A program made the translations under genes and the position numbers. DNA of 31,804 bases, from positions 1-31,804 of IMG/VR virus record IMGVR_UViG_3300020305_000063. The stretch is one strand, 5' to 3'. Shown here in pieces: positions 14,037-30,732 of this stretch (position 1 is its first letter; every line of letters starts with the position of its first letter). The DNA comes from a virus (taxonomy: Duplodnaviria; Caudoviricetes). The notes beneath the pieces were generated by a model that did not search any database, was not told the DNA's origin, and saw only the letters and a program-made list of their open reading frames with translations.

Positions 14037-14158
14037 TTGCTAGCAAAATTTTTTGATTGAAAATGTTAAGGTCTTTTCATTACCGTGCACGGTAGAGTTA
14101 TCGCCTTAGCGGCTCTACCAATAGCGAGGCAGGGACTTGCACCCTGCTGTTGGCTATT
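14037..14158 (-). promoter_or_regulatory. Structured intergenic leader between psbA and capsid (putative cis-regulatory RNA)
   Basis: Nested stems AATAGC/GCTATT enclosing GCAGGG-TGCAAGT-CCCTGC, then an abutting GGTAGAG...CTCTACC hairpin and a 14-bp palindrome at 14081-14094. Confidence 0.55.
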
Positions 14159-15212
14159 ATCCAATCGCTGGAGCCTTGTATGTAGCAAGGTCCAATGGAA
14201 AGTTGTGTGCGTTTCTTTCGTGCATCACCTCCATGCCAAGACCGGCACGGTTAAGAATATCTGCCCAGGTGTTCACCACATGACCTTCACTCGAATTAAT
14301 GGATTGATTGAAGTTGAATCCATTGAGGTTAAAAGCCATGGTACTGACGCCGAGGGAGGTAAACCAGATACCAATAACTGGGAATGCTGCGAGGAAAAAA
14401 TGCAGTGACCTAGAATTGTTAAAGCTAGCATATTGAAAAATTAGTCGTCCAAAGTATCCGTGAGCCGCAACGATATTGTAGGTCTCTTCCTCTTGACCAA
14501 ACTTGTATCCATTGTTGTGGGATTCTTGCTCGGTAGTTTCCCTAATAAGCGAGGATGTGACGAGACTTCCGTGCATAGCTGAGAAGAGAGCGCCACCAAA
14601 TACACCAGCGACACCAAGCATATGGAATGGGTGCATGAGGATATTGTGTTCGGCTTGGAAAACGAGCATATAGTTAAATGTTCCACTGATACCTAGAGGC
14701 ATAGCATCACTAAAAGATCCTTGTCCAAATGGGTACACAAGGAAGACTGCAGAAGCTGCAGCAACTGGAGCTGAGTAAGCAACAAAGATCCAGGGACGCA
14801 TACCTAGTCGATAGCTAAGTTCCCATTCTCGTCCCATGTAAGAATAGATACCAATGAGGAAGTGGAAAACGACAAGCTGGAATGGACCTCCGTTGTAGAG
14901 CCATTCATCAAGTGAATTAGCTTCCCAAATTGGGTAGAAGTGTAGTCCGATGGCATTGCTGCTCGGAACGACGGCTCCCGATATGATGTTGTTTCCATAA
15001 AGGAGGGAGCCTGCGACTGGTTCTCTGATTCCATCAATATCTACTGGTGGTGCTGCAACGAATGCAGTGATAAAACAAATGGTTGCTGCCAGAAGTGTCG
15101 GGATCATAAGGACACCGAACCAACCAACATACAACCGATTATTAGTGCTGGTTACCCAGCTGCAGAACTCATCCCAATTAGAACGAGACTGCTGTTGAAT
15201 TAATGCGGTCAT
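14157..15212 (-). CDS. psbA: Photosystem II D1 protein
   Basis: Unambiguous D1 sequence ([41 protein letters not shown]). Confidence 0.99.
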
Positions 15213-21230: not shown

Positions 21231-21429
21231 CTTCTGACAGTGTGTGGTGTAATTCATTCTCAAGGTAGTGGATAGCCTTTTTAAGGTCCTCAATCTCTGA
21301 GTGAGGACTTTTGAAACCGGCTCTGCAAATATATTTAATAGCATTGCCGCGGAAGTAATTTAGTCCTTGGTCTCTAATGAAGTCCCAGACTTCGATAGAT
21401 CCTCGGGTGTAGTGGGATGGATTGTCCAT
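21136..21429 (-). CDS. DUF3310 / T7 gp1.7-like (putative nucleotide kinase) protein
   Basis: NPSHY..G.IE..DFI, GNAIKY..RAG.K and EDLKKA..YL signature. Confidence 0.85.
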   Translation of the reverse strand: MDNPSHYTRGSIEVWDFIRDQGLNYFRGNAIKYICRAGFKSPHSEIEDLKKAIHYLENELHHTLSEDESKRPSNTVPISLWNPELDGEPDYATGFDR

Positions 21430-21620
21430 GCTTTGAGTAGTTGACCAATGTTGTTGGTCAAGATAAAGTTGGTCTTTTGTAGATCTAAAAATAAGGGAAT
21501 GATATCAGCTTTAGTTGTGACATCACGTTCAAGTAAGTCAGCAATTCGCCTTAGCTTAAATTGTTGTTCTATTGAAATTTCAGTCGTAGGCATCGGTGGG
21601 AGACCATAAGATAGGTCCAT
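21360..21620 (-). CDS. nblA: NblA-like phycobilisome degradation adaptor (start 21620 or 21593; track ORF extends to 21635)
   Basis: EISIEQQFKLR resembles the NblA ELSLEQQF motif, followed by a second amphipathic helix ending LLKAW (NblA LLKHQW). Confidence 0.7.
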   Translation of the reverse strand: MDLSYGLPPMPTTEISIEQQFKLRRIADLLERDVTTKADIIPLFLDLQKTNFILTNNIGQLLKAWTIHPTTPEDLSKSGTSLETKD

Positions 21621-22299
21621 TGTTGTAGTCCTCAACAGTTAAGATCTTTGCAAGTCGTGCATTCTTCAAAGCATCCTCTTCTGTGAGACCTTTTTGAATA
21701 AATGCGTCCAAAACGCTATTCCAAGTGTATCCGTTTTCGCCAAAAAATTTTGCGCTAGTTTTTACACCGAACCCTGGTGCACCGGAATAACCGTCAGTTT
21801 GGTCGCCTGATAGTGTTTGAATCAAGAACCATTGCCAGCCGTCTTGTTTGGTGATTGTGAACATTTTGTCCAGATTGAACAGCTTGCCTGGTATCTGTTT
21901 CATGTCCTTGTCTGGCGAGCAGATAATGCAGTCATCATTCGATGTTGCATAAACACCCATGGCGTCATCTGCTTCTAGCTCAGGCATGATGATTACTTTA
22001 TAGTCATCGTGGAGCTTGTTAATTACTCGCTTGTAACCACAGGGTTTCTTGCGGTTGCGGTGACCTTTGTACGCTGGGTCAACACGTTTCCTAAAGTTAA
22101 TAGAATCACTAAAGAAAAGAACGACATCAGCATCAAAGAAACCGGATTTAATACGATTGATATCTTTAATAGTGTTGGCATACGCCTCGCTGAATTTAGA
22201 TCCGACAACAATTACATCATTGCCGTAGTCAATATCAAACTCTGCAGCAGCACAGCTTTTGTAAACAATATAGTCAGCGTCGATCAGGAGTTTAGTCAT
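21580..22299 (-). CDS. gp6: 5'-3' exonuclease
   Basis: LLIDADY, NFRK...YKGHR, LEADDAMG, SPDKDMKQIPG and GDQTDGYSGAPGFG motifs. Confidence 0.93.
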   Translation of the reverse strand: MTKLLIDADYIVYKSCAAAEFDIDYGNDVIVVGSKFSEAYANTIKDINRIKSGFFDADVVLFFSDSINFRKRVDPAYKGHRNRKKPCGYKRVINKLHDDYKVIIMPELEADDAMGVYATSNDDCIICSPDKDMKQIPGKLFNLDKMFTITKQDGWQWFLIQTLSGDQTDGYSGAPGFGVKTSAKFFGENGYTWNSVLDAFIQKGLTEEDALKNARLAKILTVEDYNNGPILWSPTDAYD

Positions 22300-22412
22300 C
22301 CTTGTCCTCGCTTTAGTTTCCTCCCGTGCGATGGTTTGCTACTGCGTCCATTGCCTTGACGAGATTTCTTAGCAGGTTTTGCAACCTTAACGTTTGTCTT
22401 TCCGTATAGCAT
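22296..22412 (-). CDS. Small basic peptide, 38 aa (MLYGKTNVKVAKPAKKSRQGNGRSSKPSHGRKLKRGQG)
   Basis: Hand-translated. TAATG overlap with the polymerase stop and ATGA overlap with the gp6 start. Confidence 0.75.
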   Translation of the reverse strand: MLYGKTNVKVAKPAKKSRQGNGRSSKPSHGRKLKRGQG

Positions 22413-23680
22413 TAGTGGGTTTCACTCCAGTTTTTTCCAGTGGTGGCTTCTGCATCAATCCTGCAGCGGATGTTGTAGTACTCTCCAGCTTTTGTAGCTG
22501 CAAGTACCAAGGATGAACATAAGTCTTGTGCATGATTTGGATCAACCTCGAACTGCAATTCATCGTGCACGAATGCAAGCTGTGAGCAGCACAGGTTTAG
22601 TTGTTTAATGTGATTGTTATTGATGACCATCCACCGCTTTGCGACGACACCGGCTCCTGACTGGAGCAGGAAGTTCAGCGCTTTATGCGGCGAATCCAAC
22701 GCAATTTTTCGACCATCGATGCTTTTGATAAATCCACGCTCCGCAGCTTTTTTAACTGCATCGAGGAGATCACTGAGTCCATCAATTGCGTCAACATACG
22801 CGGCACGAATCTCTTTTCCTTTCTTCTTCGCTTTCGCGGAAGATAGCTGTTTGTCATAACTGTGTCCGATCTTTTCATCGCCAGCTCCATACAGAAAGGC
22901 GTATGAAATTGTCTTAATTTGTGATCTTGTGACGCCTACTTTATCAGCATTGACTTGATGAATGTCTCCGTTGAGGAGGATGTCCGCATACCTTCCGGAG
23001 TCCCACCTAGCAAGATAATGAGATAACATCCTAAGCTCAATGCCAGATAGGTCAGCGCCACACATGACCAAGCCTTTTGACGGAATGAATAGTTGTCTGA
23101 ATCTTTCATCTGAAGGTACTTGCGCCAAGTTTGGGTTTCGATGGGCGCATCTGTGTGTGCTCGTGCTAACACTGCAGTGATGATGTATCCGGTCATTCGT
23201 ACTCAGCTTCAGCCAGGCGTTCGTGCCGTTCGAGAGCATCCCAAGCATTTTCGTTACCGTCAAACATCTCGCAAACTGCATACTGATCTCTGATCCAATC
23301 TCGGTCAGAATAACTTCGTCTACGACTGGCTTCCCAGTAGTTGTCATCTGGGTCGGAGTCCAACCATAGTGTGTTGTTAATATCCATGCGATGTGATCTC
23401 TCGAAGTACAATTAAGGTCTTTCAGTCGAGTAAAGGGTGCACCCTCCGCATATCCTTGCGTCCGATTATTTCGGCGCGGAGTGAATTCTGCTCCTCCGAC
23501 GTAAGGGTGTCTCCGTCGTAGTGCCTCTTCAATCTCTCGAAGCTCTTGTGAGAGAGAAGATGTAAGTTTCCATGCAGCAGCTTCGTCAAATCTCCATCCA
23601 TGAATCTCCTGTTCAGTAAGTAATTGTTGTACCTGGTGCTCTAACGAGACCCACTCAGGTAAGGTTGAAAGTGTTTCCAA
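22412..23680 (-). CDS. gp5: DNA polymerase (family A), polymerase domain; second part of split gp5 (frame open to 23746)
   Basis: PNLAQVP, motif A (DLSGIELR), motif B (RSQIKTISYAFLYG) and motif C (VHDE). Candidate TTG start at 23680. Confidence 0.93.
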   Translation of the reverse strand: METLSTLPEWVSLEHQVQQLLTEQEIHGWRFDEAAAWKLTSSLSQELREIEEALRRRHPYVGGAEFTPRRNNRTQGYAEGAPFTRLKDLNCTSRDHIAWILTTHYGWTPTQMTTTGKPVVDEVILTEIGSEISMQFARCLTVTKMLGMLSNGTNAWLKLSTNDRIHHHCSVSTSTHRCAHRNPNLAQVPSDERFRQLFIPSKGLVMCGADLSGIELRMLSHYLARWDSGRYADILLNGDIHQVNADKVGVTRSQIKTISYAFLYGAGDEKIGHSYDKQLSSAKAKKKGKEIRAAYVDAIDGLSDLLDAVKKAAERGFIKSIDGRKIALDSPHKALNFLLQSGAGVVAKRWMVINNNHIKQLNLCCSQLAFVHDELQFEVDPNHAQDLCSSLVLAATKAGEYYNIRCRIDAEATTGKNWSETH

Positions 23681-24171
23681 AGTTTGGTGGTAACGTGAAC
23701 ATCTTGTATGCAATAATCTTCCATTTCTTGGCTCCAATTTTGCCAATCAGTGCTTTTGCCGAATGAACCTTTAAATTCACCTAGTCTGTATCCGTATGAT
23801 TCAAGTGAGTGTCTGCCATATAGTTGTGGTGGCATATGCTTCCAGTTATGTTTCTTGTCTAGCTTCATCATGTCGGCGTGGTAAAGCCTAGACAGTAAAA
23901 GAGTGTCAATGACAGTCCCAGGAGAAATAAACCAAGGGAATAGTTTCCGAAGAACAGGAATGTCATACCCAATGATGTGGTGACCAATGATGCAATCAGC
24001 ATCCGCAAGTCGTTGTATCCCACGTACAACAGGTTCTTCATTGCCCGTGTCGTTATATGAGAAAGTTTCTTCTGTATCGATGTCATAAATAGCAAGGCAG
24101 TGGATGGTAGAAACATCTTTTAGTAATCCATCAGTTTCAAGGTCAAAAATTAGGCTCACTTCTGTTTCCAT
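23641..24171 (-). CDS. gp5: DNA polymerase 3'-5' exonuclease domain; first part of split gp5 (alternative GTG start at 24159)
   Basis: ExoI FDLETDG, ExoII GHHIIGYD and ExoIII YCIQDV, plus HSLESYGYRLGEFKG. Own TAG stop at 23641-23643. Confidence 0.9.
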   Translation of the reverse strand: METEVSLIFDLETDGLLKDVSTIHCLAIYDIDTEETFSYNDTGNEEPVVRGIQRLADADCIIGHHIIGYDIPVLRKLFPWFISPGTVIDTLLLSRLYHADMMKLDKKHNWKHMPPQLYGRHSLESYGYRLGEFKGSFGKSTDWQNWSQEMEDYCIQDVHVTTKLWKHFQPYLSGSR

Positions 24172-24296
24172 ACGTAGGTCTTATCCACGAATTGAGCACG
24201 TTTAATTGCCTCTTCCGTAGGTGGGTTTGGTCGAGCGAGTTTCTCTTCAAAAGAGTCGTAATCAAAAATCTGTTGTCGGGTCGAATTCCTTTTCAC
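24156..24296 (-). CDS. Hypothetical protein, 46 aa (MKRNSTRQQIFDYDSFEEKLARPNPPTEEAIKRAQFVDKTYVWKQK)
   Basis: Hand-translated. GTG start with GAGG upstream. Fills the helicase-exonuclease gap and ends in a GTGA overlap with the exo ORF. Confidence 0.55.
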   Translation of the reverse strand: MKRNSTRQQIFDYDSFEEKLARPNPPTEEAIKRAQFVDKTYVWKQK

Positions 24297-25839
24297 CTTC
24301 TGTTTCCTCAAATTTGCAGTTTTCTAAGTTATACGCGAGTGTACAAGCTACACCAGTTTCGCCAGAATAACGATTTTTAAGGACTCTAACAGTCGTAATA
24401 CCTCCATCTTTTCCGGATTGCTGATCTCTCTCCAATCCAATGACCGAGTCGCTGAGTTGAGCGATTGCAGCAGATCCGCGCAATTGTCCGAGCGTGACTC
24501 TTGCTCCCTCTTCATGATTTTTATCTCCAATAGATCGCCTCAGATGTGAGACGAGAAATAGTGAAATGCCTGTTCGTTCTACCAATGACCTGAGCTTAGT
24601 CATGGTCGTATCGATCATTCGTCGTTCGTCTCCGTCCAGTCCACTGAGGAGGATGGAGAGGTGGTCGAGGAAGATGATCTTGCAGTCGAGACCCGATGCC
24701 AGATACTCAATCCGATTATAGATAACATCAGGGTCATAGGAGCCGAAACCATCAAACAAATAGAGGCTCCAATTAGCCAGTGTCTTATCGAACGCAGACG
24801 TGAGTTCTTCATGGGTATGTTCTCCAAGGTGCAGTGACTTACCCACCGCAGCTGACATCAATCCAAGAGCGGTTCTACGATTGGACTCTTCGAGAGCCAA
24901 GTAACCAACCCGTTCTCCTTTTTGTAGTAACTGAGTTGCAATGTCCCGACAGAAGCTGGATTTGCCAATGCCACTGCCAGCAGTGATCGTTGTAAGTTCT
25001 CCGTATCGAATACCGTGTAATTTGACGTTAAGTCCTGGAAAGGGATAGTCATGATCCGATGGTGTTTGTGGTGTAGTAACTAATTCAAGTAAACTCTTGC
25101 CTTCAACAATGCCGTCTGGTCGATATGATTGTTTCGCCCAGAATGCATCATCAATTGCCTTACGATCGTTCGCTTGCCATGCGTCTGAGAGGTCCTTGTA
25201 AGCCTCTAGGCGGGCGATGAAAACCTTGCCAGGAGGTAACACACCAGCAGCAGCTTTTGCAGCCTCCTGACCTGGTTCATCATTATCGAACCAAAGGACA
25301 ATCTCTTCATATCCTTGCAAGAATTCGAAGTTTTTTTGTACTGATTTCTTTGCTCCTGCTGCTCCTGTCGGAAGTGAGACAACGTCCCATCCCGGCATGT
25401 ACTCATAATACGTTGCAGCATCAAGCTCTCCCTCAGTAATGATAATTCGCTTACCATAACCTTTCCATAAGTGTTGACCAAAGAAAGATCCGTCCGACTC
25501 ACCTTCGTAGGAGAAGTCCTTACTAGCTGTGCGAATCTTCGCGCCGATAGGTAAGCCATTGGAATTATGATAATAGAATCTTAGTTTGTCTCCATCCCTG
25601 TAAATCTTATACTTTTCACAGGTCTTCTCGGAGATATTACGTTTGTGCAGCCGTCCGGCTGACCCTATGTAACTCATCCTGAAATGATGATTGTGAACAA
25701 CAACAGGTTGTTCGTCTCCAATTGTATGGGTGTGACACACAAAGCAATAAGTGTGACCATCTGTATAGACAGCTTTACCATCTGATGAGCCACACTCTGT
25801 ACATGCGTCGTGTCTTATGAATTCAGACGAGCCATTCAA
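24262..25839 (-). CDS. gp4: Primase/helicase (probable TTG start 25839; track ORF extends to 25959)
   Basis: Zn finger (CTECGSSD...YCFVC), TOPRIM (EGELDA, FDND), Walker A (AGSGIGKS), DHLS, LRGS, KNR and an acidic tail ending TDF. Confidence 0.95.
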   Translation of the reverse strand: MNGSSEFIRHDACTECGSSDGKAVYTDGHTYCFVCHTHTIGDEQPVVVHNHHFRMSYIGSAGRLHKRNISEKTCEKYKIYRDGDKLRFYYHNSNGLPIGAKIRTASKDFSYEGESDGSFFGQHLWKGYGKRIIITEGELDAATYYEYMPGWDVVSLPTGAAGAKKSVQKNFEFLQGYEEIVLWFDNDEPGQEAAKAAAGVLPPGKVFIARLEAYKDLSDAWQANDRKAIDDAFWAKQSYRPDGIVEGKSLLELVTTPQTPSDHDYPFPGLNVKLHGIRYGELTTITAGSGIGKSSFCRDIATQLLQKGERVGYLALEESNRRTALGLMSAAVGKSLHLGEHTHEELTSAFDKTLANWSLYLFDGFGSYDPDVIYNRIEYLASGLDCKIIFLDHLSILLSGLDGDERRMIDTTMTKLRSLVERTGISLFLVSHLRRSIGDKNHEEGARVTLGQLRGSAAIAQLSDSVIGLERDQQSGKDGGITTVRVLKNRYSGETGVACTLAYNLENCKFEETEGEKEFDPTTDF

Positions 25840-26176
25840 CTGGGATTGTTGTGAAGCTTGTCCAGGGTATATCATGTTTATCGCACCATTGTGCGTATGT
25901 AGTCTTTGATTTCTTTGAGATCTTATTGTAAGGAGTCTGGAAGACCATACGAATATCAAGCTCAGGATTCTGTTGCTTTACAGCTTTGATCTTGCGCCTG
26001 TCCTCGGGATCCCAATAACCCTTACATTCTAGAAATATACCATTTGGCAATAAAAAGTCAGGTGTGTAGTTGTGTTGAATCTGGTACGGGACCTTTGTTG
26101 ATTCATACTCATACTTCACACCCAAGTTAATCATAAGATCAGCGACTCTTTCTTCAAGTCCTGATCTGAATGCCAT
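25823..26176 (-). CDS. gp3: Endonuclease I (Holliday junction resolvase)
   Basis: FRSGLEE, YTPDFLLPNG, ECKG and W motifs. ATG at 26176 via TAATG overlap with hli. Confidence 0.93.
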   Translation of the reverse strand: MAFRSGLEERVADLMINLGVKYEYESTKVPYQIQHNYTPDFLLPNGIFLECKGYWDPEDRRKIKAVKQQNPELDIRMVFQTPYNKISKKSKTTYAQWCDKHDIPWTSFTTIPVEWLV

Positions 26177-29513: not shown

Positions 29514-30377
29514 TCAGATAGCAGCCATCGCGTCCGTGAGTGCTGCATCTGTAGCCTTTGCATATCGTAATGTTGTCTCGATACGCTTGTGTCCGCACAG
29601 AGCCATGATGGATCTGATTGGGACGCCAGCTTCAGCGAGCCATGTCGCGTAACTGTGTCGTAGTGTGTGAAAGACATAAGAATCCTCCTTTGGGATAAGA
29701 CGGTTGACTTTCTTGAATGCACGCAATAATTGATCCTTATCACGCCATTCTTCTCCGAACAAATGTATATCGGAGCGCGATGATTGTGAACAACGAGATG
29801 TAACTATGTCCATGATTTTGTCATGGATAGGTATAGCTCGCCAGTTCTTTGCCTTGGTCAATTGTGTTGGTACACCACCGACATGGATCTTGTTGCTCAC
29901 AAGGTCAATGTCTTTCTTTCTGATCTTTAAGATCTCACCCTGCCTCATGCCTGTGTAGGCACCAAACAGAATGATGTCCCTTAGATCATCACGCATGAAT
30001 ACATCAGTGGACAGAAGACACAATTGGTCTACCTCGTCCTTGGTGTACCACAACACTCGACCTTCAGATTCAGTACGACGCCTGAACTTAGGAGCAGCAT
30101 CAATCAATCCATCGAATGCAAGATGGTTGAGCACTGTGCTGATAGCTGAGACAACTCTGTTGATAGTTGCATCAGACTTTCCTTCATCCTCAAGCTCGAT
30201 ACAAACCCCTGAGACGATAACCTGAGATAGTTTCTTAATTGGAAAGCTTCCGCCTCTAAGTCGAGTGAAATGATTGCAATTGATTCTTGATGTCTCTGCT
30301 CCATTACCATGTCTCCATGAGTGGCGTGTTTTGAATGTGTAATCCACGGCGTGTTGCCATGTTCTGATCTCATCCAT
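29514..30377 (-). CDS. int: Tyrosine recombinase / integrase (track ORF extends to 30413)
   Basis: Catalytic set intact: TGMRQGE (R), TK (K), HTLRH (HxxR), GH and TTLRY (Y). Confidence 0.95.
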   Translation of the reverse strand: MDEIRTWQHAVDYTFKTRHSWRHGNGAETSRINCNHFTRLRGGSFPIKKLSQVIVSGVCIELEDEGKSDATINRVVSAISTVLNHLAFDGLIDAAPKFRRRTESEGRVLWYTKDEVDQLCLLSTDVFMRDDLRDIILFGAYTGMRQGEILKIRKKDIDLVSNKIHVGGVPTQLTKAKNWRAIPIHDKIMDIVTSRCSQSSRSDIHLFGEEWRDKDQLLRAFKKVNRLIPKEDSYVFHTLRHSYATWLAEAGVPIRSIMALCGHKRIETTLRYAKATDAALTDAMAAI

Positions 30378-30732
30378 AGATGGTGGATTTAATGAGGTGG
30401 ACAAGTTGCTCACCTTTAGGTGTCAGCCTGCACATGTGCCTGCGTGCATTGCCTGGATCGGTGTACTTCTCAATAAGACCAAGACCCTGGGTGATAACAC
30501 CTTTACGTCCATAGCCGTCATTAAGTAAGTCAATCATCCGAGAACAACTAGCAGTAGTCAGGTTCTGATCCTCTTCTATCGCTTGTTTATGGCACGGGTT
30601 GTGTGAGGCGACATATAGGAGGACAGTCACTGCCTGTGCAGGTATCTCCCTGTGCATGAGGCGCAGGGTTTCCCAACCAGTGAGCAGGAGGTTAAGCCTG
30701 CTATCTGTCTCCAGTCTTTTGAGCGGATCCAT
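30370..30732 (-). CDS. MarR-like winged-helix regulator
   Basis: HTH (IEEDQNLTTASCSRMIDLL) and wing (GLIEKYTDPGNARR...LTPKGE). GGAGG SD. Overlaps the int start. Confidence 0.8.
   Translation of the reverse strand: MDPLKRLETDSRLNLLLTGWETLRLMHREIPAQAVTVLLYVASHNPCHKQAIEEDQNLTTASCSRMIDLLNDGYGRKGVITQGLGLIEKYTDPGNARRHMCRLTPKGEQLVHLIKSTIYG

What the first reader, a model, noticed from the sequence alone, without database searches (positions are those of the whole stretch)
23641..23746. DNA polymerase is split into separate exonuclease and polymerase ORFs with a dual-coding junction
Seen: the 3'-5' exo domain ends ...KLWKHFQPYLSGSR* at 23641, just after ExoIII. The polymerase domain lies in the -1 frame (...TTG GAA ACA CTT TCA ACC TTA CCT GAG TGG = METLSTLPEW), overlapping by 40 nt from a TTG at 23680. 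Both halves keep all catalytic motifs and the break falls at the domain boundary. Established: T7 gp5 is one polypeptide. Inference: either a natural two-subunit family A polymerase with separable proofreading, or a programmed -1 frameshift. I see no canonical X XXY YYZ heptamer and no clear SD before the TTG. A single-base sequencing error cannot be excluded from one sequence.
Basis: partly seen in the sequence, partly recalled or inferred. Interest (0 to 1): 0.75.

Follow-up and report, generated by a model that had tools for sequence, protein, structure and literature searches.

The report
Split phage polymerase hiding nested genes
This marine cyanobacterial virus carries its DNA polymerase as two overlapping genes, an arrangement already published for its whole lineage and likely made as two separate subunits, and the second gene likely hides two apparently undescribed small genes in its other reading frames.

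Summary
The split is real and already known. It is the two-gene family A polymerase of clade B T7-like cyanophages (P-SSP7, S-TIP37, S-SBP1; PMC1079782, PMC10201439, PMC12695635), with the same 40-nt overlap. It is not a sequencing error: an independent run spans it without an indel, and no close relative is fused. Separate initiation fits better than frameshifting. The start triplet was ATG, TTG or GTG in 106 of 109 and 115 of 115 distinct junctions, never CTG, and no strict slippery heptamer occurs. In four relatives a whole HNH endonuclease gene sits between the halves. Not found in my literature searches: the 5' 40% of pol likely encodes two nested proteins. ORF X (+1 frame, 23601-23422, 59 aa) is open in 93 of 95 clusters and predicted as three helices. 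ORF Z (+2 frame, 23387-23193, 64 aa, acidic) is open and ATG-led in 79 of 95 clusters, while the other 16 carry 4-8 stops. Synonymous change is suppressed over both, but not over Z where it is closed. Translation of X and Z is untested. The scan earlier noted similar splits and a nested gene in other genomes, not this sequence.

The parts
23641..24171 (-). exo gene: 3'-5' proofreading exonuclease subunit, 176 aa
   Evidence: PF01612 below its curated cut-off, PF13482; phrog_403; T7 gp5 2-182
22412..23680 (-). pol gene: family A polymerase subunit, 422 aa from TTG 23680, with a shortened thioredoxin-binding region
   Evidence: PF00476 E 4e-36; query 65-74 against chain 266-311 of the T7 match
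23641..23680 (-). 40-nt exo/pol overlap; likely pol start codon TTG at 23680 (ATG in most relatives)
   Evidence: (same 40 nt in S-TIP37, P-SSP7, S-SBP1)
23681..23746 (-). upstream open stretch of the pol frame with a TTG at 23746; likely not translated
   Evidence: an in-frame stop lies 2-6 codons upstream of the homologous start in 27 of 109 junctions
23422..23601 (-). ORF X: likely nested gene in the +1 frame of pol, 59 aa, predicted three helices
23193..23387 (-). ORF Z: likely nested gene in the +2 frame of pol, 64 aa, acidic, no confident fold
24262..25959 (-). context: primase-helicase upstream
21580..22299 (-). context: gp6-like 5'-3' exonuclease downstream
   Evidence: PF02739

Best explanation
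The polymerase is encoded by two overlapping genes, exo and pol, that are likely translated from their own start codons into about 20 and 47 kDa chains predicted to reassemble into a T7-like proofreading enzyme, and pol likely also encodes two small nested proteins in its other frames. Shown here: the two ORFs, the -1 offset and its conservation across the clade. Inferred: an old one-base fission at the domain boundary, SD-less initiation at an unstructured A-rich site (TTG here, ATG in most relatives), and later invasion of the junction by an HNH gene in some lineages. Taken from the literature as a prediction: that the two chains bind. Inferred from selection signals only: translation of ORF X and ORF Z.
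For: (1) Start triplet at the homologous site: ATG 76, TTG 29, GTG 1, ATT 3 of 109 distinct junctions. The 3 ATT cases have TTG as the next codon. A sample picked with this base left free gave ATG 105, TTG 9, GTG 1 of 115 (88 new). The first base is the wobble of an exo Leu codon: CTC 0 of 80 CTN against 25% background, with at least 9 A/T changes on the tree and no C. None of the 5 intact controls has a start triplet there. (2) 0 of 109 strict heptamers between the last pol-frame stop and the exo stop; mean 40-nt folding energy is near its weakest just before the start (-2.5 against about -5); no consensus structure over the first 45 pol codons. (3) Four contigs (L015, L039, L178, L251) carry an HNH-like gene that takes over the junction ATG; pol then has its own ATG further on, so one -1 shift cannot join the halves. 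(4) Both S-TIP37 halves are detected in infection proteomes, with 19 and 29 peptides (PMC12695635 supplement). (5) Published AlphaFold2 exo+pol complex of S-SBP1 superposes on intact Syn5 PolA (PMC10201439 section). (6) ORF X: ATG in 88 and open for 50 codons in 93 of 95 clusters, against 44 and 17 expected; synonymous change 0.51-0.58 of background; pLDDT 79. ORF Z: 79 of 95 clusters open, all 79 with ATG, the other 16 with 4-8 stops; synonymous change 0.62 where open and 1.07 where closed; folding minimum just upstream of both ATGs.
Against: No N-terminal or junction peptide was found in the searchable supplement text (one PDF had no text and the zip was cut when stored). The CTC ban is modest per column: 3 of 42 control Leu columns also lack CTC. 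A relaxed heptamer occurs in 59 of 109 junctions, though at scattered places. For the nested ORFs: the simple null is too lenient, since other +1 windows are open in 72-86% of clusters. The pol 3' end shows similar synonymous suppression (0.57) without a conserved start. The Z-open set was defined by lacking stops, so its 0 of 825 realised stop opportunities is partly circular, and the branch joining it has almost no support (0.016). Z has no confident fold (pLDDT 52). All 120 listed database hits to X and 56 of 57 to Z match held polymerase loci, so no stand-alone homologue was seen. X is closed in 2 of 95 clusters and in the P-SSP10-like split phages.
Confidence: 0.85

Rival explanations
1. 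A programmed -1 ribosomal frameshift inside the 40-nt overlap makes a fused polymerase plus excess free exonuclease.
For: The offset is -1. GenBank notes for P-SSP7 and S-TIP37 leave this open, as does PMC3350473. The exo half has more spectra per residue in S-TIP37 (828 on 180 aa against 458 on 423 aa), which fits but does not require a frameshift.
Against: No strict heptamer in 109 junctions and variable bases at candidate shift sites; no conserved downstream structure; a conserved start codon that a frameshift would not need; four HNH-interrupted loci.
Confidence: 0.1
2. A single-base sequencing or assembly error in an otherwise continuous gene.
For: None; intact genes exist only in distant phages at 31-44% pol identity.
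Against: No indel in contigs of 4 runs; 161 of 163 loci share the offset and the other 2 carry an HNH insert; no fused junction among 115.
Confidence: 0.01
3. The split is real and two-subunit, but ORFs X and Z are shadow frames kept open by codon bias, shared ancestry or a DNA/RNA element rather than by selection on proteins.
For: Other +1 windows are often open; the 3' end of pol is also synonymously constrained; Z does not fold confidently; no stand-alone homologues; no family match in PHROGs (X none, Z only E 0.12 and 0.4).
Against: Four-fold sites elsewhere are only 42% identical among the same genomes and 42% of +2 stop opportunities are realised elsewhere, with 1 of 66 columns as clean as all 13 Z columns. 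Suppression persists at sites that cannot create a stop (X 0.53, Z 0.65) and vanishes over Z in the closed lineage. The 11-codon gap between X and Z is at background (1.0). No consensus RNA structure, folding z about -0.2. ATG, length and upstream low structure are conserved.
Confidence: 0.25

Closest known systems
Split exo/pol PolA of clade B (MPP-B) T7-like cyanophages: P-SSP7 017A/017B, S-TIP37 17A/17B, S-SBP1 gp15/gp16 (PMC1079782, PMC3350473, PMC10201439, PMC12695635)
   Same: Same break, same -1 offset, same 40-nt overlap, homologous start site, shortened thioredoxin-binding region, same neighbours; 59-68% pol identity.
   Different: TTG rather than ATG start. Nested ORFs X and Z are also open in those three phages but are not annotated in their records and were not found in the papers searched.
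T7 gp5 and intact clade A cyanophage PolA (P60, S-CBP2, SS120-1, S-CBP42)
   Same: Same domains and catalytic motifs.
   Different: One ORF, no start triplet at the site. The X frame has no ATG and the Z frame has several stops in all four cyanophage controls.
Phage genes split by a free-standing HNH gene, such as Aeh1 nrdA/mobE
   Same: An HNH gene lies between two halves of an essential enzyme gene in L015, L039, L178 and L251.
   Different: Here the split exists without the HNH gene in nearly all relatives; the three HNH loci placed on the tree are nested and scattered, so the insertion looks secondary.
Overprinted phage genes such as T7 18.7 within 18.5 (recalled; also named in note e1-5931098) and cyanophage nblA overlapping the exonuclease gene (PMC12695635)
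   Same: A small protein read in another frame of an essential gene.
   Different: Two full nested ORFs in tandem, in both alternative frames, inside the replicative polymerase; no known family.

Membership tests
S-SBP1-like split PolA (clade B cyanophages) | exo and pol in adjacent ORFs broken at the domain boundary, pol in the -1 frame | tested here: met
S-SBP1-like split PolA (clade B cyanophages) | conserved pol start codon upstream of the break and exo stop shortly after it (40-nt overlap) | tested here: met
   TTG at the homologous site; 40 nt in 98 of 107 junctions and 98 of 115
S-SBP1-like split PolA (clade B cyanophages) | shortened thioredoxin-binding region | tested here: met
   32-aa deletion described in PMC10201439
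S-SBP1-like split PolA (clade B cyanophages) | groups with split enzymes apart from intact clade A enzymes | tested here: met
   95 split clusters form one clade, FastTree support 0.993, against 4 intact controls
S-SBP1-like split PolA (clade B cyanophages) | two chains are made separately and bind | not testable with these tools
   needs proteomics or biochemistry; only a published prediction exists
Programmed -1 ribosomal frameshift | conserved X XXY YYZ slippery heptamer in the overlap | tested here: not met
   0 of 109
Programmed -1 ribosomal frameshift | conserved stimulatory structure downstream | tested here: not met
   no consensus pairs over pol codons 1-45 in 94 clusters; pseudoknots not modelled
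Overprinted nested gene (ORFs X, Z) | conserved start and open frame across diverged genomes | tested here: met
Overprinted nested gene (ORFs X, Z) | suppressed synonymous change in the host gene over the ORF | tested here: met
   not unique, the pol 3' end is also suppressed
Overprinted nested gene (ORFs X, Z) | translation or phenotype shown | not testable with these tools
   the published S-TIP37 search database held only UniProt proteins plus NblA
Group I intron (for the HNH inserts) | ribozyme core around the ORF | tested here: inconclusive
   no Rfam match at gathering score in L015 or L039; the ORF fills the insert; L178 and L251 not scanned

The most novel reading that the evidence does not exclude
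The replication gene of one of the ocean's dominant cyanophage clades is a four-product locus: a proofreading subunit, a polymerase subunit and two overprinted small proteins read in both alternative frames of the thumb and shortened thioredoxin-binding region. X would be a three-helix protein, possibly a replisome or host-binding partner; Z would be an acidic protein, possibly a DNA-mimic-type inhibitor gained later by one large lineage. Both would be present but unannotated in the model phages P-SSP7 and S-TIP37.
Probability: 0.65. Interest if true: 0.65.

Novelty: new variant of a known kind. Interest (0 to 1): 0.45.

Why it matters
The split itself adds nothing new. Two things do. First, the HNH-interrupted relatives and the start-codon statistics give a natural test of a question that GenBank notes and a 2012 paper left open (split gene or frameshift), and they back gene fission. 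Second, if X and Z are real, two conserved proteins have been missed in the best-studied marine cyanophages and can be tested at once in S-TIP37, which has genetics and infection proteomes. The 5' part of the DNA pol gene, used as a diversity marker for these phages, would also be under double constraint.

Tried and rejected
An RNA hairpin as the cause of frozen codons over X was rejected: no consensus structure and no folding excess. Fold searches with the X model gave only the same ORF from a relative and generic helical matches, best Z 4.7. Atlas hits to death-effector domains (0.88) are a lead only; Z had no usable hit. TTG 23746 was rejected as the start. A third +1 ORF (23196-22936) is not claimed: no synonymous suppression over codons 191-240 (0.96). 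HNH searches found 51 loci; only the two query contigs and L178 lay beside exo/pol. An origin of the split through HNH insertion and loss is not favoured but not excluded, because local tree support is low (0.11-0.67). Promoter and terminator scan showed nothing above chance. Literature searches for nested ORFs or HNH at this junction (listings only) showed no such report; subscription papers such as Lindell 2007 and Labrie 2013 were not read.

Full report
Observation. The window is a T7-like cyanophage read on the minus strand: RNA polymerase, endonuclease I, primase-helicase, DNA polymerase, exonuclease, ribonucleotide reductase, portal, psbA and capsid. The exo ORF (24171-23641, 176 aa) ends in KLWKHFQPYLSGSR*, and the pol frame is -1 to it with a TTG at 23680, giving a 40-nt overlap. 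All exonuclease and polymerase catalytic motifs are present, and the halves map to consecutive parts of T7 gp5.

Not an error. Contigs of four runs show no indel over 23300-24000. Two of these runs may be the source, one (X5) covers the junction in a piece that does not span the whole stretch, and one (X7) spans it with four substitutions. Of 165 sequences examined (160 viral-contig loci, 4 named records and the window), 163 held both halves; 161 have the -1 offset and 2 carry an insert. A later tally with added controls gave 176 loci with both halves: 166 split, 5 with an insert (3 distinct contigs) and 5 intact distant controls.

Already known. Passages of PMC1079782 report the two P-SSP7 frames in 2005. 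A passage of PMC3350473 says proteomics confirmed a putative frameshift or split. GenBank records of P-SSP7, S-TIP37 and S-SBP1 show the same 40-nt overlap. PMC10201439 (passages and one section) argues for gene fission from a conserved start and stop, predicts an exo-pol complex like intact Syn5 PolA and notes a shortened thioredoxin-binding region. Passages of PMC12695635 define clade B by the split polymerase. Its supplement lists both S-TIP37 halves in infection proteomes, with 19 and 29 peptides (one PDF had no text and the zip was cut when stored, so peptide-level data may have been missed).

Start codon or frameshift. At the homologous site, 109 distinct junctions have ATG 76, TTG 29, GTG 1 and ATT 3; the ATT cases have TTG as the next codon. 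A pattern scan that left this base free gave 115 distinct junctions, 88 of them new, with ATG 105, TTG 9, GTG 1 and none fused. The base is the wobble of an exo Leu codon, where CTC is 25% elsewhere but 0 of 80 here; 3 of 42 control Leu columns also lack CTC, so this alone is moderate evidence. The base changes between A and T at least 9 times on the tree. No strict slippery heptamer lies in the usable interval in any of 109 junctions; relaxed ones occur in 59, at scattered places. Local folding is weak just before the start and an SD-like site is nearly absent (using a recalled anti-SD motif). None of the five intact controls has a start triplet at the site.

A natural test. Four contigs (L015, L039, L178, L251) carry a 100-150 aa gene between the halves. 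Two were scanned and match HNH endonuclease families (phrog_2255, E 5e-28 and 2e-25); L178 was found by similarity to one of them and L251 shows the same cysteine motifs. The gene starts at the junction ATG, and pol then has its own ATG inside the HNH 3' end. One -1 shift cannot fuse exo to pol there. The three loci placed on the tree are nested among HNH-free split genes, the smallest clade holding them having 63 of 95 leaves, with weak local support. Secondary, homing-type invasion is the likely reading.

Nested ORFs. Frozen Leu codons near the pol 5' end led to two alternative-frame ORFs, analysed on 150 full pol ORFs reduced to 95 clusters at 95% identity. ORF X (+1 frame, 23601-23422, 59 aa) has ATG in 88 and stays open for 50 codons in 93 of 95 clusters, against 44 and 17 expected by codon resampling. 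That null is lenient, because other windows are open in 72-86%. But X also shows synonymous change at 0.58 of background (p 2e-7), 0.53 at sites that cannot create a stop, no RNA structure and a three-helix model at pLDDT 79. ORF Z (+2 frame, 23387-23193, 64 aa, mean net charge -10) is open in 79 clusters, all with ATG and 64-69 aa, while the other 16 have 4-8 stops. The open set was chosen for lacking stops, so that count is partly circular. The independent signs are the ATG, a folding minimum just upstream, and synonymous change of 0.62 in the open lineage against 1.07 in the closed one. In the second sample, among 67 loci long enough, X was open in 67 (ATG 64) and Z in 60 (ATG 58). Both ORFs are open in P-SSP7, S-TIP37 and S-SBP1 and not conserved in the four intact cyanophage controls. 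Against: the pol 3' end is similarly constrained without a conserved start, Z gives no confident fold, and database hits trace back to polymerase loci. One fosmid record with a fragmented pol annotation calls both as hypothetical proteins, which is automatic gene calling and not evidence. Their functions are inference only: X could be a replisome or host-binding partner, and Z resembles acidic DNA-mimic inhibitors in charge alone (recalled).

Verdict. The finding as given is a confirmed member of a published family and would score low alone. Two-subunit expression is about 85% likely, frameshifting about 10%. The likely nested genes and the HNH-invaded junctions were not found in five literature searches seen as listings, which do not cover most subscription journals. 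They lift the locus to a new variant of a known kind, interest 0.45, pending proteomic or ribosome-profiling proof.

Noticed in passing
L015 1131-1526, L039 1197-1526, L178 2048-2479, L251 627-938: An HNH-like endonuclease gene sits at the exo/pol junction, uses the junction ATG and overlaps a new pol start; likely a homing element of this site.
   Followed up: yes
window 21360-21635 (-): ORF overlapping the 3' end of the gp6 exonuclease, with a weak NblA match (PF04485, E 0.028, below cut-off); position fits the clade B nblA of PMC12695635.
   Followed up: partly
L012, L013, L014, L016, L020 junction: ATG replaced by ATT, with TTG as the next codon, alongside exo W-K changing to F-C; looks like a compensating shift of the start.
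   Followed up: partly
window about 22412-22525 (-), pol codons 386-421: Synonymous change is suppressed (0.57) in the Z-open lineage but not in the closed one (1.02); the +1 frame is often open but has no conserved ATG. Unexplained.
   Followed up: partly
window 23977-23979 (-), exo residue 65: ExoII reads GHHIIGYD here, whereas N65 is nearly invariant in relatives.
   Followed up: no
window 22296-22412 (-): 38-aa lysine/arginine-rich ORF between pol and gp6, with similar ORFs in several relatives; no Pfam or PHROG match.
   Followed up: no
window 22936-23196 (-): 86-aa +1-frame ORF whose ATG overlaps the ORF Z stop (ATGA); no synonymous suppression, so probably chance.
   Followed up: partly
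window 29514-30413 (-) and 14157-15212 (-): Tyrosine integrase and psbA genes, as usual in clade B cyanophages.
   Followed up: no
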